A DNA stretch of 64,000 nt from positions 13,392-77,391 of the forward strand of contig JAPLVH010000006.1 of NCBI GenBank assembly GCA_026397205.1. The letters are read 5' to 3'. This DNA comes from Candidatus Berkelbacteria bacterium. Its GTDB lineage: Bacteria; Patescibacteriota; UBA1384; XYA2-FULL-43-10; CAINNR01. Under the pieces are notes generated by a model that saw only the letters and a program-made list of their open reading frames with translations, did no database searches and was not told the origin of the DNA. Position numbers and translations under genes: made by a program. Of this stretch, positions 29,498 through 64,000 are shown in pieces. Position 1 is the first letter of the stretch. The number at the start of each line of letters is the position of its first letter.

Positions 29498-30337
29498 ATG
29501 AAAAACGCTCTGGCAGAAAAAACTTTTGTCGTTGTTGTCACCTTTAATCCGGAGGTTGATCTTTTGAAAAAAAACTTGCGGGCGATTTCCAGTCAGTTTG
29601 CTAATATTTTGATTGTTGACAACGATTCAAAAAACATCGCCGAGATCGAAAAGTTGGCGGCGCGGCTGAATGTCAAAATCGAAAAGTTGGCGGAAAATTT
29701 CGGTATCGCCAAAGCCCAAAATGTCGGGCTGGCGGTGGCAAGCCGGAAAAAATTTGGTTGGCTCCTGACGATGGACCAGGACAGCATAATTCCAAAAAAT
29801 TTGTCGGCAGAGTATCAAAAAGTTTTGGAGTCGCACGATAATGTCGGTTTGATCGGCTGGAATCAACAACCGAGAAAAAATGATCCAGAAGTGAAAGATA
29901 GTTGGTGGATTATTAGTTCCGGTTGCCTATACAAAATTTCAGTGCTGGAGGAGTGCGGCAAATTCGACACTAAATTGTTTATTGATCACGTTGATGATGA
30001 CATAAACATTAGAGTTAGAAATTTAGGATACAAAACTTTAATAACCAAAAAAGTTGATTTGCATCATCAGTTGGGGACAAGAACCCTACACAAAACAATC
30101 CGTGGCGCAGTATATTTTGCCCATAATCCTGTTAGGGTTTATTATATTGTCAGAAATGGAGTGGTAATTTTCAAGAGATACTTCTTTTCCCAACCTCTTT
30201 GGATGATGTATGAAATAAAAAATAATATTCGCGAAGGAATTTACTTGCTCTTATATCAACCGAACAAATTCAAAAACTTTTTTCTGTTGCTCCGCGCCTG
30301 GTTCGACGGACTAACAAATCGGCTGGGGAAATATTAG
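29498..30337 (+). CDS. GT2 family glycosyltransferase (rhamnosyltransferase-like)
   Basis: 'FVVVVTFNPEVDLLKKNLRAISSQ...ILIVDNDS' and a DxD-like 'DQDS' motif. 279 aa. Confidence 0.7.
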   Translation: MKNALAEKTFVVVVTFNPEVDLLKKNLRAISSQFANILIVDNDSKNIAEIEKLAARLNVKIEKLAENFGIAKAQNVGLAVASRKKFGWLLTMDQDSIIPKNLSAEYQKVLESHDNVGLIGWNQQPRKNDPEVKDSWWIISSGCLYKISVLEECGKFDTKLFIDHVDDDINIRVRNLGYKTLITKKVDLHHQLGTRTLHKTIRGAVYFAHNPVRVYYIVRNGVVIFKRYFFSQPLWMMYEIKNNIREGIYLLLYQPNKFKNFFLLLRAWFDGLTNRLGKY

Positions 30338-30390
30338 GTCTAAAATTTTGAGTTTAGCGCTTTATTAGCGCAACATCGGCGATGGCATTT

Positions 30391-31095
30391 TCACCGGAGA
30401 GACCACTCTTCTTGAAGTGTTAAGATCACATAACTTTCTACCCTACCACTAACCACATCACAGTCAAAACCCAGAGATCGAAAATATTCCTGATATTCCA
30501 CTTCCGTTGCCTTCTCAATTTCTTTGACAGTTGACGATGGAATTCTTGGATTTTTGTGGCCGAAATCGATGATGATTTTCCCATCCTTTTTTAAAATTCT
30601 TTTGTACTCCCGAATTATTCGCTCAATCTGGTTTCCTCCAACTTCCGAGATATGAAATAACGCACCCATTCTCTCATGAATTATGTCTGCACTTCCGTCA
30701 GCAACTGGCATATTACGCGAATCGCAAGCAATTGCAAAGTAAGAGACATGTTTTAACTCGATTTTTGAATTCTCAACAACAGCATTTTTAGTATCTCCAA
30801 CTGTTTTCAAGGCAAAATCAGTCGCAATAATAGTTTGACTCGGCGGATTTTCTTCGGCGTCAAGAATTTCGTCGATCTTTTCTGCGACGCCAACCGCTTT
30901 TTCTCCCCTGCTGACGGATGACATAATAAAAACCAAACTTTCGTTTTTCATTCGCTCGACTATCCCCGACGATAAAAGCACAAGTATGACATCACTTACC
31001 GTGTCCTCAATCGAAGTTTCGATCCCATTTTCAGTATCCGAATACGGCGACTCGCCGTAATATTCTTGCCAGTCCTGAATTAATTTTTCCGACAT
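30391..31095 (-). CDS. Hypothetical protein with a C-terminal class I SAM-methyltransferase-like fold (degenerate)
   Basis: 'IIATDFA...ADIIHERMG...ILKKDGKIIIDF' resembles MTase motifs I, II and III. Weak. Confidence 0.35.
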   Translation of the reverse strand: MSEKLIQDWQEYYGESPYSDTENGIETSIEDTVSDVILVLLSSGIVERMKNESLVFIMSSVSRGEKAVGVAEKIDEILDAEENPPSQTIIATDFALKTVGDTKNAVVENSKIELKHVSYFAIACDSRNMPVADGSADIIHERMGALFHISEVGGNQIERIIREYKRILKKDGKIIIDFGHKNPRIPSSTVKEIEKATEVEYQEYFRSLGFDCDVVSGRVESYVILTLQEEWSLR

Positions 31096-31097
31096 GA

Positions 31098-33293
31098 TTA
31101 TCTCCTTGTTAAAACAACATCAGCAATGGCATTTTCACCGGAGACATTGGTGATTGTGACGCTATCGCCTTTTTTAATGCTGATTTTTCCCAGATCTTTC
31201 CGGGCAAACTTTTCCTCGCCCAAATTTTTTTGGATTTCATATTTGGAATTAGAAATTTGTAATTTGAAATTACCTGCTGTTCCGCCGTCCCCGTCCAAAT
31301 ATCTCACCTGCAAGTCATAGTCGCCCGTCTCGGTGATTTTTCCGCCCAATGTTGAGCCAGCTGCATCGGTGTAAATAAAATCCTGCCCGAGGTTGGCAAA
31401 GAGCAATTTCCGCCAGAAAAAATATCTGCCACGAGTCCAACCATCTTTGTAATTCGAAAATTCCGTCGCCCAGTCAGACAACGGTAGAAATGTCATCGAC
31501 GAATCATCCTTGAATTTTTGGATATTTGGATTTTCTCCTGTTTCATTTGAAATTTGTAATTTGTCATTTGAAATTTTATAGATGAATATTCTATTCCCAA
31601 ATTGACGATCGAGATACAATCCTTTTTTATTTTCCGCCAATGTTTTCATGTCGTCGTTCATCCACTTGTCACGAATCGTCAAATTTTTTTCACCAAGAAT
31701 TCCGCTGACTTGGTAGTATTTCGATCCCATGTCAGCGCGAACAATGGCACAATCAACACCGGCTGATTGCAAAAGTGCCGCGGTTTCTCCGTTATCATTC
31801 GGCTCTAAAAAATGCGAGGTAATTTTGTTTCTTTCGTACATCTGACTCGACGGCAAAACTAGTTGCGACGAATCCTCGGTTAAGTACGGAATGCCAAGAG
31901 CCAAGGCAATCAAATCAGAGTTGGCGGCGGCTGGCGAATTGTCATTTAAAAAATAATTGAAATCCAAACTCGGCGGATAGTAAACTTTCTGGCAATAATT
32001 CTTGTTCGATTGGAAAAAATTCGCTGCTTGATTGTATTCCTCCGGAATTTGCTGAAGCGGCAAAAAACCGGCGTAGTTGAAGCTGAAATAGGGCCAAATT
32101 ATCGCCAGCGTCAAGAAAAAAGTGATGGCGATGACCGCGACTCGACCGATTTTGCCGGAAATTTTTGAGACGATGGTATTAGCGCCAAAAACAAATAATG
32201 AGATCAGCGAAAACGCCAGCAGAAATTCGAAGTGATAGGTTTCCCGAAACACCGCCAGCAGTGAAAAGTGATTGAAAACAAAGGTGTAAAAACCAGTGAA
32301 AAATTTTGTCGGCCCGATGGTGAAAGGTAAAATCAATAGTGATGAGACAATGAGCGCCAAAACCAAATGGCGATTTTTGTGGTCAAAAATCGCCAAGAAA
32401 GCAATCAGATAAATCAAACCGAAAGCCAAAAGTATAACCGGCAATTTCGACAAGGGATAAAAATAATCTATCGTAATGTGGTGGTCGGAAAGCATCAAGA
32501 CATTTCGAAGTGAATGCGGCAGGTCAGCAATAAATTTAAGCGTTACCGCCTGGCCGGCTGAGCCGGTGGTCGTTGCCGTCCGGCTTGCGAGACCGATAAT
32601 AACCCAGGGTGAATTGGCAACGATCATCGCCAGCGCAAGTTTTGAGAGATTGATGATTTTGCCGACGATGATTTTTCGTTTCGGCCAAACGAAAACTTCG
32701 ACGATCAGGAAAAAAATCGTCAGAACTCCAGCCTGAATTTGAGAAATTATCAGAGAAAGTAAAAAAGCCAAATATAAATATCGGCAAAATGATTTTTTCC
32801 GTTCGTTAAAATAGCCGTCGAGAAAAAACGGCAAAGCGGCAGCAGCAATAAGCGAAAATTCAAAACCGACGATCGTCCGAATGAAAATGTATGGCGAAAG
32901 TCCGTAGGCCAGCCCAACAAAAAATGCTATTAATTTGGAACCTGATCGGCGCGAAGTGAAAAGATAAAAACCGTAAGCGGCAAAAACCGAGGTCAAAGGA
33001 ATGAAAATTTTGAAAGCAATTCCCGGTGTGATATGTAAAAGTCCAAAAAAACCGAGCAAAACTGTCGCATATTTGCCGAAAGCCGAGACGACGCCGAAAT
33101 TGGTTTGGCTAAAAAGTTGTCTCCAGACCTCGCTCGAATTGAAAATCGGCCAACTCCAATCGTATTTGAAGGGAATTCCCGGTTGGCGAATCGCCGGTAA
33201 TATTATTGCCACGATGATTGGGGCACAAAGAAAAAACAACCGGTGCCGGCCTAAAAACTGCCAGAAAATTGTCGAGAACTTTTTTTTTGTCAT
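31098..33293 (-). CDS. Large polytopic membrane protein with a C-terminal extracytoplasmic domain (GT-C-like / YfhO-like glycosyltransferase candidate)
   Basis: 731 aa; about 12 N-terminal TM helices followed by a soluble domain of about 300 aa. Lies within the glycan island. Confidence 0.45.
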   Translation of the reverse strand: MTKKKFSTIFWQFLGRHRLFFLCAPIIVAIILPAIRQPGIPFKYDWSWPIFNSSEVWRQLFSQTNFGVVSAFGKYATVLLGFFGLLHITPGIAFKIFIPLTSVFAAYGFYLFTSRRSGSKLIAFFVGLAYGLSPYIFIRTIVGFEFSLIAAAALPFFLDGYFNERKKSFCRYLYLAFLLSLIISQIQAGVLTIFFLIVEVFVWPKRKIIVGKIINLSKLALAMIVANSPWVIIGLASRTATTTGSAGQAVTLKFIADLPHSLRNVLMLSDHHITIDYFYPLSKLPVILLAFGLIYLIAFLAIFDHKNRHLVLALIVSSLLILPFTIGPTKFFTGFYTFVFNHFSLLAVFRETYHFEFLLAFSLISLFVFGANTIVSKISGKIGRVAVIAITFFLTLAIIWPYFSFNYAGFLPLQQIPEEYNQAANFFQSNKNYCQKVYYPPSLDFNYFLNDNSPAAANSDLIALALGIPYLTEDSSQLVLPSSQMYERNKITSHFLEPNDNGETAALLQSAGVDCAIVRADMGSKYYQVSGILGEKNLTIRDKWMNDDMKTLAENKKGLYLDRQFGNRIFIYKISNDKLQISNETGENPNIQKFKDDSSMTFLPLSDWATEFSNYKDGWTRGRYFFWRKLLFANLGQDFIYTDAAGSTLGGKITETGDYDLQVRYLDGDGGTAGNFKLQISNSKYEIQKNLGEEKFARKDLGKISIKKGDSVTITNVSGENAIADVVLTRR

Positions 33294-33558: not shown

Positions 33559-34608
33559 TCAAAAAAACTTTTTCACAAAAGCCAAAATTCCCTGTTTCCA
33601 GGGCGCCCGGTGAGAAACACCGCTCTTGCCTTCAATATTATTCAAATTCGCCAAATACCATTTGTAATTCCGAAGTAGTGCGTTTTTGTTGGAAAATTGT
33701 GGCCGAAACCCGAGAACTTTTTTTGCTTTGTTAATTGAAACCGATGAATCGGTGGCCGCGGTTTCGTAAACCCATTTATAAAGCGGGGAAAGGTGAAGTT
33801 TTTCCAAAAAACGCAATATCAAAATCATCGGTCTGGCGGGAAAGGTTTTAATTTTTTTGCCGAAACCGGCGGCGTCAAGAACGGATTGATAATCTTCGCG
33901 CATTGTGGTAAATTCTTCGGCGGCGATGTTGAAAGTGTCGTCAACTTTTTTTGATGATAGAGTCAGACAAAGAAAGATCGCTTGGCACAAATCTTCGACA
34001 TCTAATAATTGATAGCGATTTTTGCCATTGCCGATCAGCGGAAAGCCGTGTCCGGATCTCGCCCAGTCGTAAAACATGGCAAAAACTCCGAGTCGCTCCG
34101 GGCCGATGAAAGATTTCGGTCGGATTATTGGGATAACCAAATCACGACGACGAAATTTTAGGCACTCCTTTTCGGCGGCGATTTTTGCTTCGCCATATGG
34201 GCCGACGCCGACTAATTTGTCGTTTTCGACCAAAGGATGATGATCAGGAATACCGTAAACCGCGGTTGACGATATCATAACTACCCGCTTGATTTTATTC
34301 TTCACCGCCGCGCTTAAAACATTTCTGGTACCAAGGACATCGGTCGAAAAAATATCTTTCTTACTATATAAAGGCAAAGCCGCTGCTGTGTGGACAATCA
34401 GGTCGCAACCAGCCATCGCCCGTTCCAGCTCCTTGTGATTGCGGATATCGCCGTAAATTGCCCGAACCTGAAACTTCTCCGGATAATCAAACGGCGCCAA
34501 ATCGTAAGTGATGATTTCATAACCCGAAGCCAAAAGATAGCGGACCAAATTGATGCCCAGGAATCCGCTTCCGCCGGTGATAAAAATTTTTCGCTTTACT
34601 TTGGACAT
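33559..34608 (-). CDS. NAD-dependent epimerase/dehydratase (extended SDR, sugar nucleotide-modifying)
   Basis: 'KIFITGGSGFLGINLVRYLL' Rossmann GxxGxxG. YxxxK-type catalytic region 'YGEAKIAAE'. Confidence 0.75.
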   Translation of the reverse strand: MSKVKRKIFITGGSGFLGINLVRYLLASGYEIITYDLAPFDYPEKFQVRAIYGDIRNHKELERAMAGCDLIVHTAAALPLYSKKDIFSTDVLGTRNVLSAAVKNKIKRVVMISSTAVYGIPDHHPLVENDKLVGVGPYGEAKIAAEKECLKFRRRDLVIPIIRPKSFIGPERLGVFAMFYDWARSGHGFPLIGNGKNRYQLLDVEDLCQAIFLCLTLSSKKVDDTFNIAAEEFTTMREDYQSVLDAAGFGKKIKTFPARPMILILRFLEKLHLSPLYKWVYETAATDSSVSINKAKKVLGFRPQFSNKNALLRNYKWYLANLNNIEGKSGVSHRAPWKQGILAFVKKFF

Positions 34609-36245
34609 AATTTTCTTTTGATTTTTAGAATTTTAGACCATGTTTGAATCAAAATTCCCGATTTTTGACCGAAAATTTCGACCGATTTGAGCGACTTCTT
34701 CAACTCCGATTTAGTTTTGAAATCGTCCAGAATATTCAGCGATCTTGGCAATTCGATTTTTAGGTGCGCATCGCCAGCGACAATTTTTGGTTTGTGGTAT
34801 TTTTCCGCCAGATTTTCGGCGAAATTATTGGCTGACTGAAAAAGATTCCGCGAGTTAAAAATCTCGACAATGTCAATTTGGTTGATGATCTTTTCCGACA
34901 ACTCCCGATTGATCGCCGACCTACGAACTGTGTCGCCCGGGTGCGGCAGGCAAACCAGTCCACCCTGGCGCTTGATCTCCTCAATCGCCTCCGCCAGTAG
35001 TGTAAATTTAGCAATTTTCTTCTCTAAAAACAAACCGATAATTTCGCCCTCCGGCGTTCGAATCTCCTCGCCGATTATCACCAGCGGATTTCCGGCGGCA
35101 ATTTTTTTGACTGCCAACGCGCCGGCAATTTCGTTGTGGTCGCAAATTGCGACGATGGTAATTTTATTTTCCCGACAATATCCGACGATATCTTCCGGCG
35201 TCAATCGGCCATCAGATGAAAAATTAGTATGAACATGAAACAGCATTTTGACTTTTCCGACTGCCGACTGCCGACTGCCTCTTGCGCTAGCTGACTCTGT
35301 GGGGACTGCCGACTTTTTGCCAAATCTCCTTTCGGCAACCAATAAAAAAAATGTTCCGACAATGACGGCAAACCAGAGCGTCACCGCCCGAATCAGAATC
35401 GTTGCAAAAGCCGCCGTGCCTGAGTTGATTGACAAAAATTTCAGTAAACCGGCGATTGAACCATCGGTGACTCCAAGACCGGCCGGAAGCATCATAACCG
35501 CACCGATAATCGTCGAGAAACAGTAAACGAAAAAACCGGCGAAAACGCTGATATTTAATTTTAGAAGAACGAGAATTAAATAAAAATCTAGCGCCTCAAA
35601 TGACCAGGCGATAATCGAAACAAAAAAGGGAAAAATAATCCTTTTGGGCAGAAGCAAATTGTAAGAGGTTTCATAGAGATCCATAATTCGATTTGCGTGT
35701 TTCGAAACAAATTTTATTTTGGTTAAAAACCTAAAAAACGTTAACCCGACCGGCCTGATCAAAATCACTAAAATAACTGCCACGATCAAGAAAAATATTA
35801 TCCAGATGACATTTTTTCCATATGAAAAACCGTAGGCGCCGATTGCAGAAATTGTCAGAAAAGCCATCAGGTCCGCCAACCGGTCGGCAAAAACAATCGG
35901 CGCGGTTCGCGACACCGGAACATTAAATCCGGTCTTCAAAAAATAGGATTTAACCACTTCGCCGAGTTTTCCCGGCGTGATAGTTAACGATAGGCCGGAG
36001 ATAAAAATGATAAACGAGTCAATCGGCGGAATTTTTATCCTTAAAATTTTCAGATAGTATTGCCATTTGATAAACCGAACAAGATAATTTGAAAAAGCAA
36101 TGACAAGTAGCAGTGGCAAATACCTCCAATTAAAACCGGTAAATGCCTGCAGAAGACCGTTCTTGACTCCCCAAGCCGCCAAAATCAGGTAGACGACAAC
36201 CGCAAGCGCCAAACTGTAAATAATCTTTCTGGAAATATTTTTCAT
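34596..36245 (-). CDS. Fusion protein: N-terminal UPF0104 (lysylphosphatidylglycerol-synthase-TM-like flippase) domain + C-terminal PHP-domain phosphoesterase. The linker is encoded by a heptamer mini-element.
   Basis: TM region about 300 aa. 'MLFHVHTNFSSDGRLTPEDIV...ICDHNEIAGA' is PHP. The linker 'SAVPTESASARGSRQSAVGKVKM' is encoded by the 35247-35322 repeat. Confidence 0.55.
   Translation of the reverse strand: MKNISRKIIYSLALAVVVYLILAAWGVKNGLLQAFTGFNWRYLPLLLVIAFSNYLVRFIKWQYYLKILRIKIPPIDSFIIFISGLSLTITPGKLGEVVKSYFLKTGFNVPVSRTAPIVFADRLADLMAFLTISAIGAYGFSYGKNVIWIIFFLIVAVILVILIRPVGLTFFRFLTKIKFVSKHANRIMDLYETSYNLLLPKRIIFPFFVSIIAWSFEALDFYLILVLLKLNISVFAGFFVYCFSTIIGAVMMLPAGLGVTDGSIAGLLKFLSINSGTAAFATILIRAVTLWFAVIVGTFFLLVAERRFGKKSAVPTESASARGSRQSAVGKVKMLFHVHTNFSSDGRLTPEDIVGYCRENKITIVAICDHNEIAGALAVKKIAAGNPLVIIGEEIRTPEGEIIGLFLEKKIAKFTLLAEAIEEIKRQGGLVCLPHPGDTVRRSAINRELSEKIINQIDIVEIFNSRNLFQSANNFAENLAEKYHKPKIVAGDAHLKIELPRSLNILDDFKTKSELKKSLKSVEIFGQKSGILIQTWSKILKIKRKLCPK
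35247..35322. repeat. Mini-element variant: (CCGACTG)3, GCTAGCTGACTCTGTGGGGA module, CTGCCGACT. Forms the inter-domain linker of the UPF0104-PHP fusion.
   Basis: 'ttttgacttttccgactgccgactgccgactgcctcttgcgctagctgactctgtggggactgccgactttttgcc'. A related 'caactgccgactgtcaact' is at 33378-33400. Confidence 0.65.
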
Positions 36246-57646: not shown

Positions 57647-58073
57647 TTTTTATCCAAAGTTTTTTATGGTCGAAGTTTTTGGCGATGCGAAAAGTTAAAA
57701 AATATGTCGGCCAGACGGCGCCATTGCAGAAAGTATCATAGAAAAGATGAAATAAATTGGCAAAACCAAGCGAGAAAAACAGCCAACCAAGATTCGGAAA
57801 GATCAAACTGAGCACAATCAGAATTATCGCAAATTCGAAACCGTGAAAAAAAACATAAACTTTTCCCGAATCGTCAAAATGTTTACCGGAAAAAAAATCG
57901 TTTATGTTGAATTTCCAGCCACGATGAATAAAATAGTCAATCAGGTGGTCAGCGTCGAGAAAAAAACCGGAGGCTATGGCCAGCGGAACCGCCCAAAAAT
58001 TGCCAGTTAATTTTCCAACAACCAAACCGATTGCAACTGACAAAACGAAATGAATAAATTCGTCAATAAACAT
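57636..58073 (-). CDS. Small polytopic membrane protein (DUF457/YdjM-like membrane-bound metal-dependent hydrolase candidate)
   Basis: 145 aa, 4 TM helices, conserved His/Asp 'DADHLIDYFIH'. Weak. Confidence 0.3.
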   Translation of the reverse strand: MFIDEFIHFVLSVAIGLVVGKLTGNFWAVPLAIASGFFLDADHLIDYFIHRGWKFNINDFFSGKHFDDSGKVYVFFHGFEFAIILIVLSLIFPNLGWLFFSLGFANLFHLFYDTFCNGAVWPTYFLTFRIAKNFDHKKLWIKNEK

Positions 58074-58095
58074 CTTAAGCTTCTTAAGCGACTTA
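58074..58095. repeat. Operon-junction palindrome (CTTAAGCTTCTTAAG variant) between the rSAM stop and the downstream start
   Basis: 'cttaagcttcttaagcgactta'. Confidence 0.55.
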
Positions 58096-59706
58096 TGTCT
58101 TTTTTTTCGAAAAATCGGTCAGGTGGCCAAGCAATTTCCCGCCGGCACGCCAGAGAAATTTTAAATCATCAGCACTTCGGATGCCACCGATTTTTCGAAA
58201 AATGAATTTCGGTGTCATAAATGACTTATAAAGTCCTTGTGTCAACTCTTTTATGTCCGACTCCGACAACTCCGATTTCATTATGATTTTCCGCTGGTCG
58301 TAATCGTCCCAATTTTTCGTTGTCAGCCAGCCGTTTTTTTGGCACTCTTTAAATAGTGGCGTGCCGGGATAAGGAATAACGATTGTCGCCTGCAAAGTAT
58401 CAACAAAACCCGAGTCAAATAATTTCTTCGACAAAGCGATCGTTCGTTTCGCGTCTTCCAAACTCTCCCACGGATAGCCCATCATTGTCGTAATGTGCGG
58501 CTCGAGTCCAGCCTTTTTCGCCATCCGAACCCCTTTTTCAATTTCGGCGACGCGCAAATTTTTATTAATATGATCGAGAGTTTTCTGATTTGCCGACTCT
58601 AGCCCATACAAAATAAAGCGAAAACCGGCTTTGCCCATTAAATTATATTCTTCTTGCGACAGGGCTTTCAACCGCATATTGCAATCAATTTTGATCTTTT
58701 TGTTGTAGCCGCGAGAAATCATCCCGTCGCAAAATTCTTCAAGCCACGGCCCAATCGGAAACGAGCCGGCGTCGTCCATAACTTCTTTAACTTTATATTT
58801 GTGGATCAGAATTCCGATTTCGTCCAACATTCGCTTGGCCGAATGTTTGCGGTAATCCTTGCCGGGGTAAAGCGTCGTCCAGGAGCAAAATGTGCACTTT
58901 CCCCACCAACAGTCGCGAGCGGAAAAAGTGTAAGTTCCCGGCGTTCGTTTGTAGTTGCCGTTTTTATAGGCGTATAGTTTCCACTTGGTTAAATCCCGAT
59001 CAATCATCGGCAGCTCGTCCAAAATATGATTTAATTCGAAATGTCCGGTATTTTCGAACAGATCCCCTTCCTTCATTTTTCTTGCGATAGCTGACCCTGT
59101 GGGGATCTTTGATTTTTGATCTTTGATTTTTCTAAACCAGATTCCTGCCTCCAATTTTTCTCCGTGATTGATATGGTTCGCAATATTCAGTGCCAAAAAA
59201 TCCCAATCGCCACCGGTGGCGATAAAATCAACCTTTGAATTTTTCATTGACTCCTCCGGCATCGCCGTCACATGATCGCCAACCAAAACGACTTTTACCG
59301 CCGGCATTTCCTTTTTTATCACATCGATGACTTTCCAGTGGCGCTTGACAACCGGTGTTTTGGTTTCAAAGATGATGAGATCGGGACGAAATTTTTTGAT
59401 GCGATCGAGCCAAATTTCCGGCAACAATTCTTCGGCAATGCCATCATCCCACAAGACATCAAATCCTTGCAACTGTAAAAGCGTCGCGACGTAAGCCGGC
59501 ACCATCGGATAAATGTAGGTCGGATTCTTAAACCATTGAAACTGGCGATTCTGCCCAAGACACGGCGTTCCCTTTTTACTCGGCATCGGCGGATAGGAAA
59601 TTGCGATTTTGAATTTTTTATTTTTCTCCAAATGTTCTTTTGTCGGTTTTGAAATGTGTTTAATCGCCATAAGATTTTCATAAAAATAAATATTGAGTTT
59701 CATCAC
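58093..59706 (-). CDS. B12-binding-domain radical SAM protein (class B rSAM), with an in-frame mini-element insertion
   Basis: N-terminal cobalamin-binding-like domain. Cys cluster 'CWWGKCTFC' (CX4CX2C spacing). Insert 'KIKDQKSKIPTGSAIARKMKEG'. Confidence 0.55.
   Translation of the reverse strand: MMKLNIYFYENLMAIKHISKPTKEHLEKNKKFKIAISYPPMPSKKGTPCLGQNRQFQWFKNPTYIYPMVPAYVATLLQLQGFDVLWDDGIAEELLPEIWLDRIKKFRPDLIIFETKTPVVKRHWKVIDVIKKEMPAVKVVLVGDHVTAMPEESMKNSKVDFIATGGDWDFLALNIANHINHGEKLEAGIWFRKIKDQKSKIPTGSAIARKMKEGDLFENTGHFELNHILDELPMIDRDLTKWKLYAYKNGNYKRTPGTYTFSARDCWWGKCTFCSWTTLYPGKDYRKHSAKRMLDEIGILIHKYKVKEVMDDAGSFPIGPWLEEFCDGMISRGYNKKIKIDCNMRLKALSQEEYNLMGKAGFRFILYGLESANQKTLDHINKNLRVAEIEKGVRMAKKAGLEPHITTMMGYPWESLEDAKRTIALSKKLFDSGFVDTLQATIVIPYPGTPLFKECQKNGWLTTKNWDDYDQRKIIMKSELSESDIKELTQGLYKSFMTPKFIFRKIGGIRSADDLKFLWRAGGKLLGHLTDFSKKKT
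59083..59131. repeat. Mini-element fragment (GATAGCTGACCCTGTGGGGA + (TGATYTT)n), in frame inside the rSAM gene
   Basis: 'cttgcgatagctgaccctgtggggatctttgatttttgatctttgattttt'. Confidence 0.7.
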
Positions 59707-60246: not shown

Positions 60247-61224
60247 TTATCGTTCCAATTTCCGAACCGTCAGTCCTTGGACAAAACGAATTCCATACCA
60301 AATGTGAGTTAGAAAGATCATTGGAATTGTTAGAATACCAATAAGCGGATTTTTGTGACGGAGGGAAATGATGACGGCATCAAATAAAAGTCCTAATCCG
60401 TAAGCAATAAGCGGTAAGAAAAACAAAATTCGAAATTCGAAATTCGAAATTCGAAACAATATCGAAAATAAGAAAATTAAATACAAAACAAATAAAGTCG
60501 GGATAAAGTAGCCGATTTTCAAAGATGTCTGCGGATATTTTTTGGCAAAAAAGCCGCGGTGGAGTGCATAGTTTCCGATTTGTTTGAAATGCTTTAAGAG
60601 ATTGGCGCGACGATGGTGGTAGACAATACCGGCCGGGTCATAAATAATTTTGTAGCCGGCACTTACAATGTCGAGACAAAGTTTTGTGTCCTCGCCCGGC
60701 CAATACTGGCAATCAAATCCGCCGACTTCCTTAAAAACATCGCGCCAGATCAGCAAACTGACCGTCGGCCAGTCGTCGCAAGTTCGACGATTTCCGATTG
60801 GTAGATAACGGTTGCGGGTGAAACCGCCACCGAGATACGACTCGAAAATCGCGCCGGAAACTTTTTGCAAAACGCCGTTTGATGACGGCGTCACTGCTGG
60901 ACAACCGACGGCGCCAACTTCAGATTTGCGAAAATTGGGAATCATCTTTTTTAGCCAGTCGCGGCGCGGATAGGCATCATCATCTAAAAAAGCCAGGACT
61001 TTCCCACGGGCAAATTTCAGCGCCAAATCACGCTTTTCTGCCGGTCCGATCTTGCCAGAAGCGATGATTTTTGTTTTTGGCCAGCGGTGAATTTCATCCG
61101 GTCGGTCGGGAAATATTAAAACCTCAAACTCCGGCCAATCGAGTTTCAGAATATGCTCCATTGATTCGTAAATGTAGTCGTTGATCTTTTTAACCGGAAT
61201 GATAATTGAAACTTTGGGTTTCAT
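60247..61224 (-). CDS. GT2 family glycosyltransferase with a C-terminal TM region
   Basis: 'KVSIIIPVKKINDYI...LAFLDDDAYP' DXD motif. Three C-terminal hydrophobic helices. Confidence 0.65.
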   Translation of the reverse strand: MKPKVSIIIPVKKINDYIYESMEHILKLDWPEFEVLIFPDRPDEIHRWPKTKIIASGKIGPAEKRDLALKFARGKVLAFLDDDAYPRRDWLKKMIPNFRKSEVGAVGCPAVTPSSNGVLQKVSGAIFESYLGGGFTRNRYLPIGNRRTCDDWPTVSLLIWRDVFKEVGGFDCQYWPGEDTKLCLDIVSAGYKIIYDPAGIVYHHRRANLLKHFKQIGNYALHRGFFAKKYPQTSLKIGYFIPTLFVLYLIFLFSILFRISNFEFRILFFLPLIAYGLGLLFDAVIISLRHKNPLIGILTIPMIFLTHIWYGIRFVQGLTVRKLER

Positions 61225-61338: not shown

Positions 61339-63132
61339 TTAGTATCCCATCTCTCGCAAATATTTTATCGTTTTTGTCAGTCCGGCTTCGAGCGAAATTT
61401 TCGGCGACCAGCCGAGAAGTTTTTTTGCTCGGCTGATATCCGGCTTTCGGCGAGTCGGATCGGAAATCGCCGGCGCAACATGAATAATTTTTGACGACGA
61501 CTTCGTCAACTTGATAACTTTTTCCGCCAACTCTAGCATCGTGCACTCCTGCGGATTGCCAATATTGATCGGACCCTCCAGATCCGAGTGGATGAATTTC
61601 ATCTGGGCCTCGATTTGGTCATCAACAAAGCAAAAACTTCTGGTTTGATTTCCACTGCCCTGAATCGTGATTTCTTCGCCAGACAGCGCTTGCTTGATAA
61701 AGTTGGTGACAACCCGACCATCATCCGGATCCATCATTGGGCCGTAGGTGTTGAAAATTCGGACAATGCCACTGTTGAGACTTTTTTGCCGGCGGGCTTG
61801 GTAAATCAGGGCTTCGGCAAATCGTTTGCCTTCATCATAACATGATCGCATTGAATATGACCAAACATTGCCGGAATAACTCTCCTTTTGCGGATGCTCA
61901 AGTGGGTCGCCGTAAATTTCCGAGGTTGACGATTGAAAAAACCGGGCGCTGTTTTTGTGGGCAAACTTTAAAAGATTTTCGACACCGATAGAATTTGTCT
62001 CCAAAGTTTTAATCGGATCGAGATAATACTTCGGTGGCGACGCCGGGCAGGCGTAGTTCAAAACAAAATCAAACTGACCGCGGGATTTTATCGGCTGACA
62101 AATATCGTGTTTGACGAATGTGAATCTGGGAAACCTCTTTAATTGATCGAGATTGCGCCGATTTCCGGTTTGCAAATTATCAATGACGACAACTTCGCCA
62201 CCGGCAGTCAAAATTCTTTTTGCCATATTGGCGCCTAAAAATCCGGCGCCGCCGGCAATTAAATATTTTTTGCCAGCCGGTTTGAGTTTTTTTGTCGTTG
62301 TTTTTTTCGGCGATGACGGCAAATCCAAGGACAATTTCTGGTGGCGATAATAGTTCAAAATCCGAGCGCGGTAAAAAATCGCCAGTGTGTCGGTAATCAT
62401 TTTTATGATCGTTTTCGGACTGATACCGGAAGCGATAGCGTTAAAATCCAGCTCAACCGGTGCCTCAAAAATCCGCCGATAACCAAGCTGATGGGCGATA
62501 ACCAGCATTTCCAAATCGAAAGCGTACTGTTTAACTAATGCTCGCGGCAAAATATCGTTGGCAACATTACGACGCAAAAATTTCAGGCCAGCTTGAGTGT
62601 CGGTGACATTCAGGCCGAAAAGAATTTTGATCAGCCGCGAATAAATCCAGGAGTAAATTTTTCGCCGCGTCGGATAGTTGACCCGGCTGGCCGGATGCCG
62701 TTTTGAGCCAATGACAAAATCGGCATCAAAGATTTCCAGAAGGCGGACGAATTTGTCGAACTGCTTAGGATCAAAATCACCACCGGCATCAGTGAAAGTA
62801 ATAATTTCGCCGGAAGCTTTTTCGGCGCCGAATTTCAGGGCATAACCTTTGCCGTGATTCGGGAAATATTCAAAAACCTTGACATTTTTTGATTTCGCTC
62901 GCCTCGCCTCTTTCGCCGTTTTGTCCGGTGAGCCATCAACGACGACGATAACTTCAAAATCATATGATAATTGATCGTGAGTTCTGACGATTTTCTGAAT
63001 CGTCCGATAGATATTTTTTTCCTCGTTGTAGGCCGGAATGACGATCGAAAGTTTTGGGCGCTGATTTTTCGTCAACTTCAAAACCCTCCCCCGTTTTGCC
63101 CCTCCGGAAGATTTTTGATTTGATTCTGGCAT
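61339..63132 (-). CDS. Bifunctional fusion: N-terminal GT2 polyprenyl-phosphate glycosyltransferase (ArnC/DPM1-like) + C-terminal UDP-glucuronate decarboxylase/UXS-like SDR
   Basis: GT2 'LSIVIPAYNEEKNI...VIVVVDGSPDKT...FTDAGGDFDP'. SDR 'YLIAGGAGFLGANMAKRIL', 'YDEGKRFAEAL'. Confidence 0.7.
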   Translation of the reverse strand: MPESNQKSSGGAKRGRVLKLTKNQRPKLSIVIPAYNEEKNIYRTIQKIVRTHDQLSYDFEVIVVVDGSPDKTAKEARRAKSKNVKVFEYFPNHGKGYALKFGAEKASGEIITFTDAGGDFDPKQFDKFVRLLEIFDADFVIGSKRHPASRVNYPTRRKIYSWIYSRLIKILFGLNVTDTQAGLKFLRRNVANDILPRALVKQYAFDLEMLVIAHQLGYRRIFEAPVELDFNAIASGISPKTIIKMITDTLAIFYRARILNYYRHQKLSLDLPSSPKKTTTKKLKPAGKKYLIAGGAGFLGANMAKRILTAGGEVVVIDNLQTGNRRNLDQLKRFPRFTFVKHDICQPIKSRGQFDFVLNYACPASPPKYYLDPIKTLETNSIGVENLLKFAHKNSARFFQSSTSEIYGDPLEHPQKESYSGNVWSYSMRSCYDEGKRFAEALIYQARRQKSLNSGIVRIFNTYGPMMDPDDGRVVTNFIKQALSGEEITIQGSGNQTRSFCFVDDQIEAQMKFIHSDLEGPINIGNPQECTMLELAEKVIKLTKSSSKIIHVAPAISDPTRRKPDISRAKKLLGWSPKISLEAGLTKTIKYLREMGY

Positions 63133-63139
63133 TTTTAGT

Positions 63140-64000
63140 TCAAAAAGTTTCCCGCCGGAAAAAGGACTTTAACTGCTGGCGCTTTCCAAAAAGATAATAT
63201 ATCATCATTGCGGCAAAAAGCAAAGCAAACGACAAAATTATTATCCGGACGACCAACTCTAGCGACGAATGAAATTTGGCGATCGCTAGAATTTGCAAGA
63301 TTTCCGCCAAAGCGAAAAACCAGATAAAACGAAAATTTCTGACCACCAAGAAGTAATTGACCAAAAGATTTATCAGCGAATAAAGCAGAATTGCCAGACC
63401 GATCTCCGGTAGAAGATAAAATAAATTGATATACTGCGCGCCGTACAAAACGCCGATGATTTTCGCCGGCGCCACGGTGTAAGCGCCAAGAATCAAAAAC
63501 GATCCAACCAAAACCATGAGCAAAGAGTAAAAAAAGAGTGGATAGTGTTTGTCGCCACGGGTTTTTTTCTCGGAGATCATTGGAAACATCACCGAGACGA
63601 CCGGCGAGGTTATATATAGTATGATCTTGCCAACAGTCGAAACGGCGGCGTAGATGCCAGCGATGTCCGGTGGAAAATAGTGCTTGACCAAAATGATGTC
63701 AAGATTGATGGCGATCGCCAGAAGAAGCATCGAGCCGAGCGCCGGCCAGGAGTAATTCAAAATTTCTTTTTTATCGAAAGTGAAATTTTTTTCTGTTCGA
63801 TCCTTCTTGATTTTTTTGAAAATCCCCGATATCGGCCAGAAAGTCAAAGCGTATGTTGCCGCTGTGGCTAGGACAATTCCCAAAAGCGCGCCGGAAACCG
63901 CAAGGCCGATTTTTACCAAGATGATACCGAGCGCCAAACGAGCAGCCATTTCAAAAATCCCAACCGCTGATAGGGCGTAAAATTTCTGGGCGCCCTGCAA
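63140..64000 (-). CDS. Polysaccharide biosynthesis flippase (Wzx/MOP-superfamily-like), C-terminal part only; the gene continues beyond the window end
   Basis: Continuous hydrophobic helices, open frame to the window edge, typical O-unit flippase C-terminal half. Confidence 0.45.
   Translation of the reverse strand: MQGAQKFYALSAVGIFEMAARLALGIILVKIGLAVSGALLGIVLATAATYALTFWPISGIFKKIKKDRTEKNFTFDKKEILNYSWPALGSMLLLAIAINLDIILVKHYFPPDIAGIYAAVSTVGKIILYITSPVVSVMFPMISEKKTRGDKHYPLFFYSLLMVLVGSFLILGAYTVAPAKIIGVLYGAQYINLFYLLPEIGLAILLYSLINLLVNYFLVVRNFRFIWFFALAEILQILAIAKFHSSLELVVRIIILSFALLFAAMMIYYLFGKRQQLKSFFRRETF

What the first reader, a model, noticed from the sequence alone, without database searches (positions are those of the whole stretch)
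29498..64000. A ~34 kb single-strand glycan island combining Arn-pathway-like enzymes with three bifunctional fusions and six methyltransferase genes or domains
The island carries six GT2, two GT4 and at least four large GT-C-like membrane proteins, among them a 1145-aa protein with two PMT/ArnT-like modules. It also has a DegT aminotransferase (ArnB-like), a GT2 polyprenyl-phosphate sugar transferase (ArnC/DPM1-like), a UXS/ArnA-decarboxylase-like SDR fused to a second ArnC-like GT2, a UbiA-type prenyltransferase related to decaprenyl-phosphate ribosyltransferase, two UPF0104 flippase-like proteins and a Wzx-like flippase.

This gene set resembles the lipid-linked aminopentose (Ara4N-type) route of Gram-negative lipid A modification. 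Here it is combined with protein/wall O-mannosyltransferase-like GT-C enzymes and an unusual number of SAM methyltransferases: five recognisable as genes or domains (one of them fused to a GT4), plus a weak MTase-like sixth (30391-31095). There is also a B12-rSAM enzyme. Together these predict a heavily methylated, amino-sugar-containing glycan assembled on a polyprenyl phosphate carrier and transferred outside the membrane.

The fusions GT2+UXS, GT4+MTase and UPF0104+PHP are not arrangements I recognise from characterised systems.
Basis: inference. Interest (0 to 1): 0.7.

Follow-up and report, generated by a model that had tools for sequence, protein, structure and literature searches.

The report
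Mosaic surface-glycan locus in a Berkelbacteria genome

Summary
The gene content is largely as described. Twenty-six glycan genes plus a HicAB-like pair run on the minus strand from 64000 to 30391. The GT2 gene at 29498-30337 is on the plus strand. The three named fusions (GT2+UXS, GT4+methyltransferase, UPF0104+PHP) each recur full-length in five or more independent sequence clusters, so they are not artefacts. Only five class-I methyltransferase domains were found, plus one B12-radical-SAM enzyme. The 1145-aa double GT-C protein is a singleton fusion.

The Ara4N (Arn) reading is mostly not supported. The SDR half of the fusion is a canonical UDP-xylose synthase, not ArnA-type. The DegT protein is closer to other sugar aminotransferases than to ArnB. 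No formyltransferase or deformylase is present.

The best-supported core is 33559-40550: a UbiA-type polyprenyl-phosphate phosphoribosyltransferase, a PHP phosphatase fused to an MprF-like flippase domain, a single SDR, and GT-C transferases. This is a variant of the "three-component pentofuranose" system (Kelly et al. 2024), built with different phosphatase, flippase and GT-C families. The same module occurs in haloarchaea and Streptomyces.

The locus is a mosaic of blocks found separately in other genomes. Verdict: a new variant of a known kind, of moderate interest.

The parts
63140..64000 (-). Wzx-like MOP-family flippase. The 5' end is cut by the window edge, with about 141 residues missing.
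   Evidence: Polysacc_synt and Polysacc_synt_3 hits. It aligns from residue 142 of 427-aa homologs that always sit directly upstream of the GT2/UXS gene in L001, L003, L009 and L012-L014.
61339..63132 (-). Fusion of a DPMS/GtrB/ArnC-class GT2 (residues ~26-265) with a UDP-xylose synthase (residues ~288-597), joined by a Lys/Ser/Thr/Pro-rich linker.
   Evidence: Pfam. The GT2 half's best PDB hits are P. furiosus Dol-P-Man synthase 5MLZ (1.9e-13), GtrB 5EKP and ArnC 9HWJ. The SDR half matches human UXS1 4GLL at 1.6e-89. The fusion is conserved in P0001-P0010. It is split into separate genes in at least 9 loci.
60247..61224 (-). GT2 with three C-terminal membrane helices, the conserved partner of the GT2/UXS gene.
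   Evidence: Pfam, hydropathy peaks, and 54-76% identical orthologs beside GT2/UXS in 16 loci, with two weaker (44%) matches.
58093..59706 (-). B12-binding radical SAM enzyme, HpnJ-like but below the family cut-off.
   Evidence: Radical_SAM and B12-binding hits. HpnJ scores 157 bits against a cut-off of 578. It is conserved downstream of the GT2/UXS block in L013, L014, L016, L024, L026 and L032.
57636..58073 (-). 145-aa membrane protein that travels with the radical SAM gene.
   Evidence: Orthologs lie next to the rSAM gene in most of the 7 loci that carry it (L012, L013, L016, L023 shown). No family was assigned.
56750..57646 (-). Soluble GT2 glycosyltransferase.
   Evidence: Pfam. A 73% identical ortholog is in L023.
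56107..56859 (-). Class-I SAM methyltransferase.
   Evidence: Methyltransf_11 at 71.7 bits.
54912..56096 (-). GT4 glycosyltransferase.
   Evidence: Glycos_transf_1 at 116 bits. Collinear with L014.
54013..54915 (-). Soluble GT2 glycosyltransferase.
   Evidence: Pfam. Orthologs in L014 and L008.
53284..53955 (-). Class-I SAM methyltransferase.
   Evidence: Methyltransf_11 at 47 bits. A 77% identical ortholog is in L008.
52329..53318 (-). GT2 with C-terminal membrane helices.
   Evidence: Pfam, hydropathy, and a 62% identical ortholog in L008.
49613..52399 (-). 928-aa AftD-like GT-C glycosyltransferase: about 13 helices plus a large outer domain.
   Evidence: Sub-threshold PMT_2 hit. It is a paralog of the 731-aa protein (hhalign 98.2%). 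The family profile matches GT-C_AftD-positive proteins at 99.9% probability, E 1.6e-31. It sits a few genes upstream of UbiA in L005, L006 and L008.
48204..49616 (-). 470-aa membrane protein (signal anchor, ~300-aa outer domain, 5-6 C-terminal helices). It always follows the 928-aa GT-C. Function unknown.
   Evidence: Hydropathy. 23-26% identical orthologs hold the same position in L005 and L008. No family hit.
47267..48244 (-). GtrB/ArnC/PgfS-class polyprenyl-phosphate glycosyltransferase: GT2 with 2 C-terminal helices.
   Evidence: The ArnC model scores 189 bits and the PgfS model 173 bits, both over the full length but below the cut-offs. Orthologs begin the same block in L009 and L011.
45420..47270 (-). 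GT4 + class-I methyltransferase fusion.
   Evidence: Pfam. Five further full-length clusters, P0242-P0246, at 41-50% identity.
44259..45407 (-). DegT-family sugar aminotransferase with unresolved specificity.
   Evidence: DegT_DnrJ_EryC1 at 326 bits. No NCBIfam equivalog passes its cut-off. Best PDB hits are 4XAU/4ZWV and CalS13; ArnB scores lower.
43329..44255 (-). Stand-alone UPF0104 (MprF-like) flippase-type protein.
   Evidence: LPG_synthase_TM at 92.9 bits. A counterpart is in the L011 block.
42070..43332 (-). 420-aa polytopic membrane protein conserved next to DegT. A candidate transferase, fold unresolved.
   Evidence: 39% identical ortholog in L009. No family hit. The single-sequence AlphaFold2 model is unusable (pLDDT 52).
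41442..42128 (-). 228-aa bitopic protein of unknown function.
   Evidence: Two hydropathy peaks. A 217-aa gene occupies the same position in L009.
40567..41445 (-). Class-I SAM methyltransferase.
   Evidence: Methyltransf_11 at 33.9 bits. A 40% identical ortholog is in L011.
37113..40550 (-). 1145-aa ORF containing two GT-C modules. Residues 1-~448 (window 39168-40550) are ALG6/ALG3/PimE-like. Residues 462-1145 (window 37113-39167) are PMT_2 type.
   Evidence: PMT_2 at 44.6 bits. N-module fold search. The two halves match separate ~460-aa and ~684-aa proteins everywhere else. Met462 starts the second module.
36247..37116 (-). UbiA-type polyprenyl-phosphate 5-phosphoribosyltransferase (PPPRS/DPPRS-like).
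   Evidence: NCBIfam NF008977 at 276 bits, above the 234 cut-off. M. tuberculosis Rv3806c structure 8J8J matches at E 2.8e-41 over the full length, with the NDxxDxxxD motif aligned.
34596..36245 (-). UPF0104 flippase-like membrane domain (1-~310) fused to a PHP metal-dependent phosphoesterase (~335-549).
   Evidence: Pfam. PHP metal-ligand motifs HxH, DH, E, H and DxH are all present. Fused in P0122-P0127, L095 and L096; split in L092/L093, L098 and L099, and in a haloarchaeal plasmid.
33559..34608 (-). Extended SDR (GxxGxxG, S...YxxxK): candidate epimerase or oxidoreductase acting on polyprenyl-phospho-ribose.
   Evidence: Pfam Epimerase and 3Beta_HSD hits; nearest NCBIfam models are HpnA and OleD. 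71-78% identical in all CPR copies of the module; 48% in Halostagnicola and 42% in Streptomyces, both next to UbiA.
31098..33293 (-). 731-aa AftD-like GT-C glycosyltransferase.
   Evidence: hhalign against the 928-aa family and against GT-C_AftD-positive proteins. Orthologs lie downstream of the module in L008 (46%) and L092 (27%).
30391..31095 (-). Class-I SAM methyltransferase, the weakest of the five.
   Evidence: Methyltransf_11 at 27.5 bits (cut-off 21.2) and Methyltransf_8 at 27.5 bits (cut-off 27).
29498..30337 (+). Rhamnosyltransferase-like GT2 on the opposite strand, converging on the operon.
   Evidence: Glycos_transf_2. TIGR01556 rhamnosyltransferase at 161 bits, below the 200.55 cut-off.

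Best explanation
The region is a variable cell-surface glycan locus of a Candidatus Berkelbacteria (CPR/Patescibacteria) genome. It is assembled from blocks that occur separately in other genomes.

**Proposed working principle (inferred).** Several polyprenyl-monophosphate-linked single-sugar donors are made on the cytoplasmic face of the membrane. They are flipped, and GT-C enzymes then transfer them outside the membrane onto a glycan or protein acceptor. That acceptor is partly built by the soluble GT2/GT4 enzymes and decorated by SAM methyltransferases.

**Module 1 (33559-40550, plus the AftD-like GT-Cs at 49613-52399 and 31098-33293).** This is the best-supported part.
1. The UbiA enzyme transfers ribose-5-phosphate from PRPP to polyprenyl phosphate.
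2. The PHP domain removes the 5-phosphate.
3. The single SDR may epimerise the lipid-linked ribofuranose to another pentofuranose (which one is unknown).
4. The fused UPF0104 domain flips the product.
5. PMT_2, ALG6-like and AftD-like GT-C enzymes transfer it.

**Module 2 (40567-48244).** DegT makes a nucleotide 4-amino sugar. The GtrB/ArnC-class GT2 loads a sugar on polyprenyl phosphate. The second UPF0104 protein flips it, and the 420-aa membrane protein is the candidate transferase.

**Module 3 (60247-64000).** The UXS domain converts UDP-glucuronate to UDP-xylose. The fused DPMS-like GT2 uses it, possibly to make polyprenyl-phospho-xylose, with the adjacent Wzx-like MOP protein as flippase.

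**Basis.** Domain identities, fusions and synteny are shown by tool results. All substrates, products and the acceptor are inferred.
For: **Source organism**
- Products identical to window proteins are recorded as Candidatus Berkelbacteria MAG proteins on an 82-kb contig.

**Module 1**
- UbiA passes the DPPRS equivalog cut-off and aligns over its full length to Rv3806c with the catalytic motif.
- The PHP metal ligands are intact.
- The order UbiA / UPF0104(+)PHP / SDR, with GT-C genes around it, is conserved in L005-L008 and L092/L093 (partly in L095). The same parts lie in divergent orientation on the Halostagnicola plasmid. A Streptomyces plasmid carries a related set with a different phosphatase family.
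- UPF0104 and PHP occur both fused and as adjacent genes.
- A UbiA gene sits 7-51 nt upstream of a UPF0104 gene in about 30 further metagenome loci.
- The 928-aa and 731-aa proteins are homologous to GT-C_AftD-positive proteins.
- Kelly et al. 2024 (PMC11127046) showed experimentally that the combination of PPPRS, phosphatase, flippase, GT-C and an optional single SDR epimerase adds pentofuranoses outside the membrane.

**Module 3**
- The UXS identity is strong.
- The GT2 half is nearest to Dol-P-Man synthase, GtrB and ArnC.
- A UDP-glucose dehydrogenase gene is adjacent in eight distinct related loci.
- GT2 and UXS occur fused or as neighbouring genes.

**Module 2**
- The block recurs in L009 and L011.
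Against: - No activity, substrate or product was tested, and the acceptor is unknown.
- No priming phosphoglycosyltransferase, Wzy polymerase or ligase was recognised in the window.
- No UDP-glucose dehydrogenase is encoded anywhere in the 64 kb, so the UXS substrate must come from elsewhere.
- No 4,6-dehydratase or other keto-sugar-forming enzyme sits in the DegT block here. The L009 relative has an extra SDR at that position.
- A flippase role for UPF0104 is inferred only from homology to the MprF flippase domain and from gene linkage.
- The GT2 half of the fusion lacks membrane helices, and its preference for polyprenyl-phosphate-type enzymes over generic GT2s is modest (E 1e-13 against 1e-9 to 1e-10).
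- Homology of the SDR to the characterised Citrobacter epimerase ORF13 could not be tested.
- The more distant UbiA/UPF0104 pairs (35-41% identity) have a GT2 neighbour and no PHP or SDR, so they may do something else.
Confidence: 0.62

Rival explanations
1. This is the first reader's model: an Ara4N-type lipid-linked aminopentose route. The UXS-like domain releases UDP-4-keto-pentose and DegT aminates it. The ArnC-like GT2 loads it on undecaprenyl phosphate, a UPF0104 protein flips it, and an ArnT-like GT-C transfers it.
For: - The ArnC model is the best NCBIfam hit of 47267-48244 (189 bits, full length).
- DegT, a flippase-like protein and polytopic membrane proteins lie together.
- ArnB structures are among the DegT hits (147 bits).
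Against: - The SDR is a canonical UXS: 303 bits to human UXS1 with all catalytic motifs. ArnA is absent from the hits at E <= 1e-20, and the ArnA model gives 89 bits against 777.
- DegT scores higher on PseC, WecE and LegC models, and on CalS13/AtmS13-type and perosamine enzyme structures, than on ArnB.
- No formyltransferase or deformylase domain was found in the island.
- The UXS gene and the DegT block are 14 kb apart. They belong to different conserved blocks that occur independently in other genomes.
- In relatives, the DegT block has its own SDR.
Confidence: 0.1
2. This is an ordinary Wzx-dependent heteropolysaccharide locus. The GT2/GT4 enzymes, including the one fused to UXS, are Leloir transferases that build a repeat unit on undecaprenyl diphosphate, and Wzx flips it. 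The large membrane proteins act as polymerases or ligases, or as side-chain modifiers only.
For: - A Wzx-like gene heads the operon.
- Several soluble GT2/GT4 enzymes and methyltransferases are typical of such loci.
- dTDP-rhamnose genes flank the Wzx gene in relatives.
- The fused GT2 has no membrane helix.
Against: - No priming transferase or Wzy/ligase family was detected in the window.
- Five GT-C modules, a PPPRS, two UPF0104 proteins and a GtrB/ArnC-class GT2 are far more lipid-monophosphate machinery than side-chain decoration usually needs.
- The fused GT2 is nearest to polyprenyl-phosphate transferases.
- This rival is compatible with module 1 of the best explanation and differs mainly in how module 3 is read.
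Confidence: 0.22
3. One or more of the fusions are assembly or frameshift artefacts of the metagenome-assembled genome.
For: The 1145-aa ORF has no full-length counterpart among 1.84 billion representatives. Its two halves match separate proteins, and the second half starts at an internal Met that aligns with residue 1 of its homologs.
Against:
- For the 1145-aa ORF, the upstream module is open in the same frame up to the junction, and alternative frames carry stops. At most a lost stop codon is involved.
Confidence: 0.06

Closest known systems
Three-component pentofuranose glycosylation system of Citrobacter youngae O1/O2 (Kelly, Duong, Nothof, Lowary, Whitfield, PNAS 2024; PMC11127046)
   Same: - A UbiA-type polyprenyl-phosphate phosphoribosyltransferase that uses PRPP.
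- A dedicated phosphatase for the 5-phosphate.
- A flippase.
- GT-C transferases acting outside the membrane.
- An optional single GalE-like SDR with GxxGxxG and YxxxK motifs that changes the pentofuranose.
   Different: - The phosphatase is a PHP domain, not a HAD domain. It is fused to the flippase-like protein rather than to the UbiA enzyme.
- The flippase candidate is UPF0104/MprF-like, not MATE.
- The GT-Cs are PMT_2, ALG6-like and AftD-like; GT136 membership is untested.
- Several GT-Cs are present, which suggests more than side-chain addition.
- The host is a CPR bacterium, with counterparts in haloarchaea.
Mycobacterial decaprenyl-phospho-arabinose pathway (Rv3806c, Rv3807c, DprE1/DprE2, Rv3789, Emb/Aft GT-Cs)
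   Same: - The Rv3806c homolog passes the NCBIfam equivalog cut-off and matches structure 8J8J.
- AftD-like GT-C paralogs are present.
- The order of steps is the same: phosphoribosyl transfer, dephosphorylation, redox change, flipping.
   Different: - There is no PAP2 phosphatase, no FAD-dependent DprE1, no short-chain DprE2 and no GtrA/SMR flippase.
- One extended SDR stands in place of the two-enzyme epimerase.
Arn (Ara4N) lipid A modification pathway
   Same: A GtrB/ArnC-class GT2, a DegT-family aminotransferase, a flippase step and GT-C transfer outside the membrane.
   Different: - No ArnA-type decarboxylase, formyltransferase, ArnD or ArnE/F.
- The DegT is not ArnB-like.
- CPR bacteria such as Berkelbacteria are generally described as lacking an outer membrane, so a lipid A acceptor is unlikely (general knowledge, not checked here).
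GtrA/GtrB/Gtr(type) and Dol-P-Man synthase / PMT systems
   Same: A GT2 that loads one sugar on polyprenyl phosphate, followed by a flippase and a GT-C. The PMT_2 family includes protein O-mannosyltransferases.
   Different: - One such GT2 is fused to UDP-xylose synthase, which implies a xylose donor. My literature searches found no description of this.
- The flippase candidates belong to other families.

Membership tests
Arn (Ara4N) pathway | ArnA C-terminal UDP-glucuronate oxidative decarboxylase that releases UDP-4-keto-pentose. | tested here: not met
   The SDR domain scores 303 bits to human UXS1, and the next PDB hits score 124 bits or less. ArnA is absent at E <= 1e-20. The NCBIfam ArnA model gives 88.9 bits against a cut-off of 777.
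Arn (Ara4N) pathway | ArnA N-terminal formyltransferase and ArnD deformylase. | tested here: not met
   No formyltransferase or polysaccharide-deacetylase domain was found in any of the 27 island proteins.
Arn (Ara4N) pathway | ArnB UDP-4-keto-pentose aminotransferase. | tested here: not met
   The ArnB model gives 196 bits against a cut-off of 631, below PseC (256), WecE (233) and LegC (219). In the PDB, ArnB scores 147 bits against 196 for 4XAU.
Arn (Ara4N) pathway | ArnC undecaprenyl-phosphate Ara4FN transferase. | tested here: inconclusive
   47267-48244 matches the ArnC model over its full length, but at 189 bits against a cut-off of 529. The PgfS model scores nearly the same, 173 bits. 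This gives class membership only.
Arn (Ara4N) pathway | ArnT (GT83) transferase. | tested here: inconclusive
   PMT_2 is present on 37113-39167, but no PDB sequence hit, ArnT included. The 420-aa neighbour of DegT has no assignable fold.
Three-component pentofuranose system (Kelly et al. 2024) | UbiA-type polyprenyl-phosphate phosphoribosyltransferase with the N-D-x-x-D-x-x-x-D loop. | tested here: met
   NF008977 scores 276 bits, above the 234 cut-off. Structure 8J8J matches at E 2.8e-41, with the sequence YVLNDIFDFRRDRFHPTKKFRP aligned to the Rv3806c motif.
Three-component pentofuranose system (Kelly et al. 2024) | Phosphoribose 5-phosphatase (a HAD-family PRP domain in the prototype). | tested here: not met
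   There is no HAD domain. A PHP phosphoesterase with an intact metal-binding motif takes its place. The function is inferred, and the protein family differs.
Three-component pentofuranose system (Kelly et al. 2024) | MATE-family flippase. | tested here: not met
   The linked membrane domain is LPG_synthase_TM/UPF0104. A MOP-family Wzx-like gene exists but lies 27 kb away, in another block.
Three-component pentofuranose system (Kelly et al. 2024) | GT-C transferase of family GT136. | not testable with these tools
   GT-C proteins are present. No GT136 sequence or model was available for comparison.
Three-component pentofuranose system (Kelly et al. 2024) | Optional single cytoplasmic SDR epimerase (ORF13 type) with TGxxGxxG and YxxxK. 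| tested here: inconclusive
   33559-34608 has ITGGSGFLG and YGEAK, and no signal or membrane segment. The ORF13 sequence is held only as an image, so homology could not be tested.
Mycobacterial DPA pathway | DprE1 (FAD oxidase) and DprE2 (short-chain reductase). | tested here: not met
   No FAD-oxidase domain or classical short-chain (adh_short) SDR was found in the island. Only one extended SDR is present next to UbiA.
UDP-xylose synthase (UXS) family | Full-length similarity to UXS1 with the TSE, YxxxK and RIFNTxGP catalytic motifs. | tested here: met
   The alignment to 4GLL shows STSEIYGD, CYDEGKR and RIFNTYGP conserved. The domain is 50-55% identical to rhizobial proteins named UDP-glucuronic acid decarboxylase family.
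GT-C fold glycosyltransferases | A polytopic fold matching solved GT-C enzymes. | tested here: met
   - The N-module model has pLDDT 90.6. Foldseek gives ALG6 at TM 0.66/0.64, followed by PIG-U, PIG-M, ALG3, PimE, STT3, ArnT and EmbB.
- The C-module hits PMT_2 above the cut-off.
- The 928-aa and 731-aa proteins are assigned through GT-C_AftD homologs.

The most novel reading that the evidence does not exclude
Two uncharacterised enzyme arrangements in this locus may define new routes to lipid-linked pentose donors that are shared by CPR bacteria and archaea.

1. A PHP phosphatase paired or fused with an MprF-like UPF0104 domain. This would dephosphorylate and flip polyprenyl-phospho-ribofuranose. 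It would give the UPF0104 subfamily next to UbiA genes its first concrete substrate.
2. A Dol-P-Man-synthase-like GT2 fused to UDP-xylose synthase. This would make polyprenyl-phospho-xylose, a donor not described in prokaryotes as far as my searches show.

Together with five GT-C modules, these would build a methylated pentose-rich polymer on the surface of an ultra-small bacterium.
Probability: 0.3. Interest if true: 0.65.

Novelty: new variant of a known kind. Interest (0 to 1): 0.5.

Why it matters
- **CPR surface chemistry.** CPR bacteria are uncultured, and their surfaces, which mediate attachment to hosts, are chemically unknown. This locus gives testable predictions: pentofuranose, xylose and amino-sugar residues, heavy methylation, and assembly outside the membrane.
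- **Reach of the known pathway.** The locus extends the recently established PRPP-dependent pentofuranose pathway to new protein families (PHP phosphatase, UPF0104 flippase candidate, AftD-like, PMT_2 and ALG6-like GT-Cs). It also extends it to archaea.
- **An experimental route.** Haloarchaea that carry the same module belong to a group with cultured members and established genetic tools. That offers a way to assign a function to the widespread UPF0104 family and to the conserved SDR.
- **A candidate new enzyme.** The GT2-UXS fusion may be a new lipid-linked xylose donor synthase.

Tried and rejected
- **PDB sequence searches.** The 1145-aa, 928-aa and 731-aa proteins gave nothing.
- **Low-stringency family scans.** Pfam and NCBIfam scans of the unassigned membrane proteins gave only weak hints.
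- **hhalign against the PMT_2 family.** The 731-aa, 928-aa and 420-aa families showed no relation (probability 2-3%). The AftD link was found later, through L092.
- **Structure of the 420-aa protein.** The single-sequence model was too poor to search with (pLDDT 52). No fold is therefore assigned to the 420-aa or 470-aa proteins.
- **Source contig.** An exact-sequence lookup of the GT2-UXS product found nothing. The lookup for P0121 returned only a 2.2-kb contig, so the sequence beyond position 64000 could not be read.
- **Genome scan.** The source genome was not among the hits of the genome-contig scan; the best hit was 78% identical.
- **RNA and mobility signals.** No tRNA or Rfam element is present, and GC content shows no clear foreign-island signature. 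The "island" is a variable locus, not a demonstrable mobile element.
- **Literature.** Searches for polyprenyl- or dolichyl-phosphate xylose, for GT2-UXS fusions, for DPPRS in Patescibacteria and for PHP/UbiA in haloarchaea found nothing relevant.
- **Citrobacter ORF13.** The sequence is available only as an image.
- **Distant UPF0104 homolog.** P0163 (41% identity) has no UbiA neighbour, so the link does not hold for the whole family.

Full report
**1. What is in the sequence**

ORF listing shows an unbroken run of minus-strand genes from the window end at 64000 down to 30391. A plus-strand gene (29498-30337) converges on this run. Pfam and NCBIfam scans of all 27 products give the following.
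- Seven GT2 domains and two GT4 domains.
- Five class-I SAM methyltransferase domains.
- One B12-binding radical SAM enzyme.
- One DegT aminotransferase and two extended SDRs.
- One UbiA-family protein and two LPG_synthase_TM (UPF0104) domains.
- One PHP domain.
- A 5'-truncated Wzx-like gene.
- Several large polytopic membrane proteins (hydropathy).

The upstream 29 kb holds ordinary bacterial housekeeping genes: MreBC, PBP2, GreA, MnmA, MetRS, KsgA and UvrD. There is no tRNA or Rfam element, and composition does not set the region apart.

Two window products are 100% identical to proteins recorded as "Candidatus Berkelbacteria bacterium" on an 82,218-nt contig. The host is therefore a CPR/Patescibacteria bacterium.

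**2. Are the fusions real?**

- GT2+SDR is found in P0001-P0010 at 56-77% identity.
- UPF0104+PHP is found in P0122-P0127 at 51-68% identity.
- GT4+methyltransferase is found in P0242-P0246 at 41-50% identity.

Two of them also occur as separate neighbouring genes in relatives.
- GT2 and UXS are adjacent in L009 and L023. They have an intervening gene in L018, L019, L021, L022, L024, L026 and L032.
- UPF0104 and PHP are overlapping separate ORFs in L092/L093, and separate genes on a haloarchaeal plasmid.

These are therefore genuine fusions of functionally linked genes.

The 1145-aa ORF is different. Among 1.84 billion representative proteins only the protein itself is full-length. Residues 1-~445 match ~460-aa proteins, and residues 462-1145 match ~684-aa PMT_2 proteins. 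Met462 aligns with residue 1 of those homologs. It is a singleton fusion that may be real or may reflect a lost stop codon.

**3. The Arn/Ara4N reading**
- The SDR half of the GT2 fusion is a canonical UDP-xylose synthase. It scores 303 bits (E 1.6e-89) to human UXS1 with the STSE, YDEGK and RIFNTYGP motifs conserved. The next PDB hits score 124 bits or less, and ArnA is not among hits at E <= 1e-20. The domain is 50-55% identical to proteins named UDP-glucuronic acid decarboxylase.
- The DegT protein passes no NCBIfam equivalog cut-off. It scores PseC 256, WecE 233, LegC 219 and ArnB 196 bits. In the PDB it is closest to 4XAU/4ZWV and CalS13 (178-196 bits), then perosamine synthases, then ArnB at 147 bits.
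- No formyltransferase or deformylase domain is present.
- The UXS gene and the DegT block are 14 kb apart, in blocks that occur independently elsewhere.

The specific Ara4N analogy therefore fails on its defining features. What remains is the general class resemblance: a GtrB/ArnC-type GT2 at 47267-48244, a flippase step, and GT-C transfer.

**4. The pentofuranose module**

The UbiA protein (36247-37116) passes the NCBIfam cut-off for decaprenyl-phosphate phosphoribosyltransferase (276 against 234 bits). It aligns over its full length to the M. tuberculosis Rv3806c structure 8J8J (E 2.8e-41), with the NDxxDxxxD loop conserved.

Directly downstream lies the UPF0104+PHP protein. Its PHP domain keeps all canonical metal ligands: HVH, DH, E, H and DAH. 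After it comes an extended SDR with GxxGxxG and YxxxK motifs. That SDR's nearest named relatives act on lipid substrates: HpnA, OleD, and 3-beta-HSD/NSDHL.

The arrangement UbiA / UPF0104(+)PHP / SDR, with GT-C genes nearby, is conserved.
- It occurs in L005-L008 and L092/L093 (partly in L095).
- It occurs as annotated genes on the Halostagnicola larsenii XH-48 plasmid. There, an LPG-synthase-TM protein, a PHP protein and a "decaprenyl-phosphate phosphoribosyltransferase" lie divergent from an SDR (48% identical to the window's) and a "DolP-mannose mannosyltransferase".
- A Streptomyces plasmid carries SDR, UbiA, GT2, a phosphatase of another family, GT2 and an LPG-synthase-domain protein.
- About 30 further metagenome loci have a UbiA gene 7-51 nt upstream of a UPF0104 gene. 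Those distant pairs lack PHP and SDR and carry a GT2 instead.

Kelly et al. 2024 (PMC11127046) established experimentally that four components add alpha-pentofuranoses outside the membrane. These are a UbiA-type polyprenyl-phosphoribose synthase, a phosphatase, a flippase and a GT-C. They also showed that a single GalE-like SDR can convert the lipid-linked ribofuranose into xylofuranose.

The window module has the same logic but different families for the phosphatase (PHP instead of HAD), the flippase (UPF0104 instead of MATE) and the GT-Cs. That paper does not mention PHP, MprF-like proteins or candidate phyla.

**5. The GT-C complement**
- The C-module of the 1145-aa protein hits PMT_2 above threshold.
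- The N-module was modelled with a 22-sequence alignment (pLDDT 90.6, pTM 0.91). Its best structural matches are all GT-C enzymes: ALG6 at TM 0.66/0.64, then PIG-U, PIG-M, ALG3, PimE, STT3, ArnT and EmbB.
- The 928-aa and 731-aa proteins are paralogs (hhalign 98.2%).
- Their joint profile matches two ~730-aa proteins that flank the module in L092/L093 at 99.9% probability, E 1.6e-31. One of those proteins hits Pfam GT-C_AftD at 35.6 bits against a cut-off of 26.

AftD is a mycobacterial arabinofuranosyltransferase (a GT-C; its Pfam family is named for that activity) whose donor is, by established knowledge of the arabinan pathway, lipid-linked arabinofuranose; this fits the module. The 470-aa and 420-aa proteins remain unassigned.

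**6. The GT2-UXS block**

The GT2 half is most similar to Pyrococcus Dol-P-Man synthase (1.9e-13, whole catalytic domain), GtrB and ArnC. Generic GT2 enzymes score less well.

The order Wzx-like gene, GT2/UXS, then a membrane-anchored GT2 is conserved in many Berkelbacteria-like genomes. UDP-glucose dehydrogenase is adjacent in eight distinct related loci.

This supports a route from UDP-glucose through UDP-glucuronate and UDP-xylose to a GT2 step. The end product is possibly polyprenyl-phospho-xylose, with the MOP-family neighbour as flippase. That last step is inference. The window itself encodes no Ugd.

**7. Mosaic structure**
- Window 54013-64000 is collinear with L014, and partly with L012, L013 and L023.
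- Window 48204-54915, 33559-39167 and 31098-33293 are collinear with L008.
- Window 41442-48244 is collinear with L009 and partly L011. L009 has an extra SDR where the window has none.

The locus is thus a recombinant assembly of conserved blocks, typical of variable surface-glycan loci.

**8. Verdict**

The Arn interpretation is mostly wrong in its specifics. The most informative content is a new variant of the three-component pentofuranose system, together with a GT2-UXS fusion that predicts a lipid-linked xylose donor. All chemistry remains inferred.

Noticed in passing
window 59771-60208 (-): Two small ORFs lie in the only sizeable gap of the operon. The 75-aa ORF looks like a HicA toxin and the 69-aa ORF like a HicB antitoxin, judged by eye from their sequences. 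A HicB/HicA pair with Pfam hits also sits beside the same GT2 gene in L001.
   Followed up: partly
window 39167-39230 (-): This is the junction of the two GT-C modules in the 1145-aa ORF. The second module starts at Met462, and the 13 residues before it are predicted to be disordered. No other full-length example exists in the 1.84-billion-protein library, so a lost stop codon or a sequencing error cannot be excluded.
   Followed up: partly
window 33294-33558: A near-consensus promoter-like site (TTGACA, 17 nt, TAAAAT; 33555-33527, minus strand) and a terminator-like hairpin (33452-33437) lie between the SDR gene and the 731-aa GT-C gene. The last two genes may form a separate transcription unit.
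   Followed up: no
window 26056-29306 (+): A TPR protein, a dockerin-domain protein, a 23S-rRNA-IVP-family protein and a 415-aa protein with no family hit border the locus. L005/L006 have a 328-aa dockerin protein and a 419-aa protein of similar size and arrangement near their copy of the UbiA module; homology was not tested. These could be acceptor or surface proteins.
   Followed up: no
L154 (Halostagnicola larsenii XH-48 plasmid NZ_CP007056, 226.4-232.0 kb) and H2, H3, H5 (Natronococcus, Haloterrigena): The Halostagnicola plasmid carries the same five-part module: LPG-synthase-TM protein, PHP protein, DPPRS-annotated UbiA, SDR and a PMT-type GT-C. The SDR is 48% identical to the window's. 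Three other haloarchaeal plasmids carry SDR homologs at 46-49% identity; their neighbourhoods were not examined. I found no literature on this module.
   Followed up: partly
L101-L142 (metagenome contigs): About 30 loci have a ~340-aa UbiA gene 7-51 nt upstream of a UPF0104 gene. In L103 and L125 the pair is preceded by a Crp-family regulator and followed by a GT2. There is no PHP or SDR, so this is a related but distinct cassette of unknown function.
   Followed up: partly
L008 12926-17516: In this relative the UbiA module is followed by SAM synthetase, a PfkB-family kinase, S-adenosylhomocysteine hydrolase and a GHMP kinase. This is a methyl-cycle set that fits heavy methylation of the product.
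   Followed up: no
L082 (Candidatus Iainarchaeum andersonii SCGC AAA011-E11) and L040 (Bathyarchaeia-labelled MAG contig): tblastn matches span both the GT2 and UXS halves of the fusion (49-51% identity) in archaeal-labelled records. I did not confirm that these are single ORFs.
   Followed up: no
L001 13185-14673: A diversity-generating-retroelement-like pair (a bAvd accessory protein and reverse-transcriptase fragments) sits inside the related glycan locus of another Berkelbacteria-type genome.
   Followed up: no
L012 14334-17324 and L023 9954-12899: In two relatives the B12-radical-SAM homolog lies in an ORF of about 980-996 aa. Only the C-terminal ~260 residues of that ORF match the window enzyme. 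This could be a different N-terminal domain or a mis-called start.
   Followed up: no
window 9652-10443 (-) and 13936-14775 (-): A PIG-L-family de-N-acetylase and an EamA-family transporter lie 16-20 kb outside the locus. They belong to families that could serve sugar deacetylation or lipid-sugar flipping, but nothing links them to the island.
   Followed up: no
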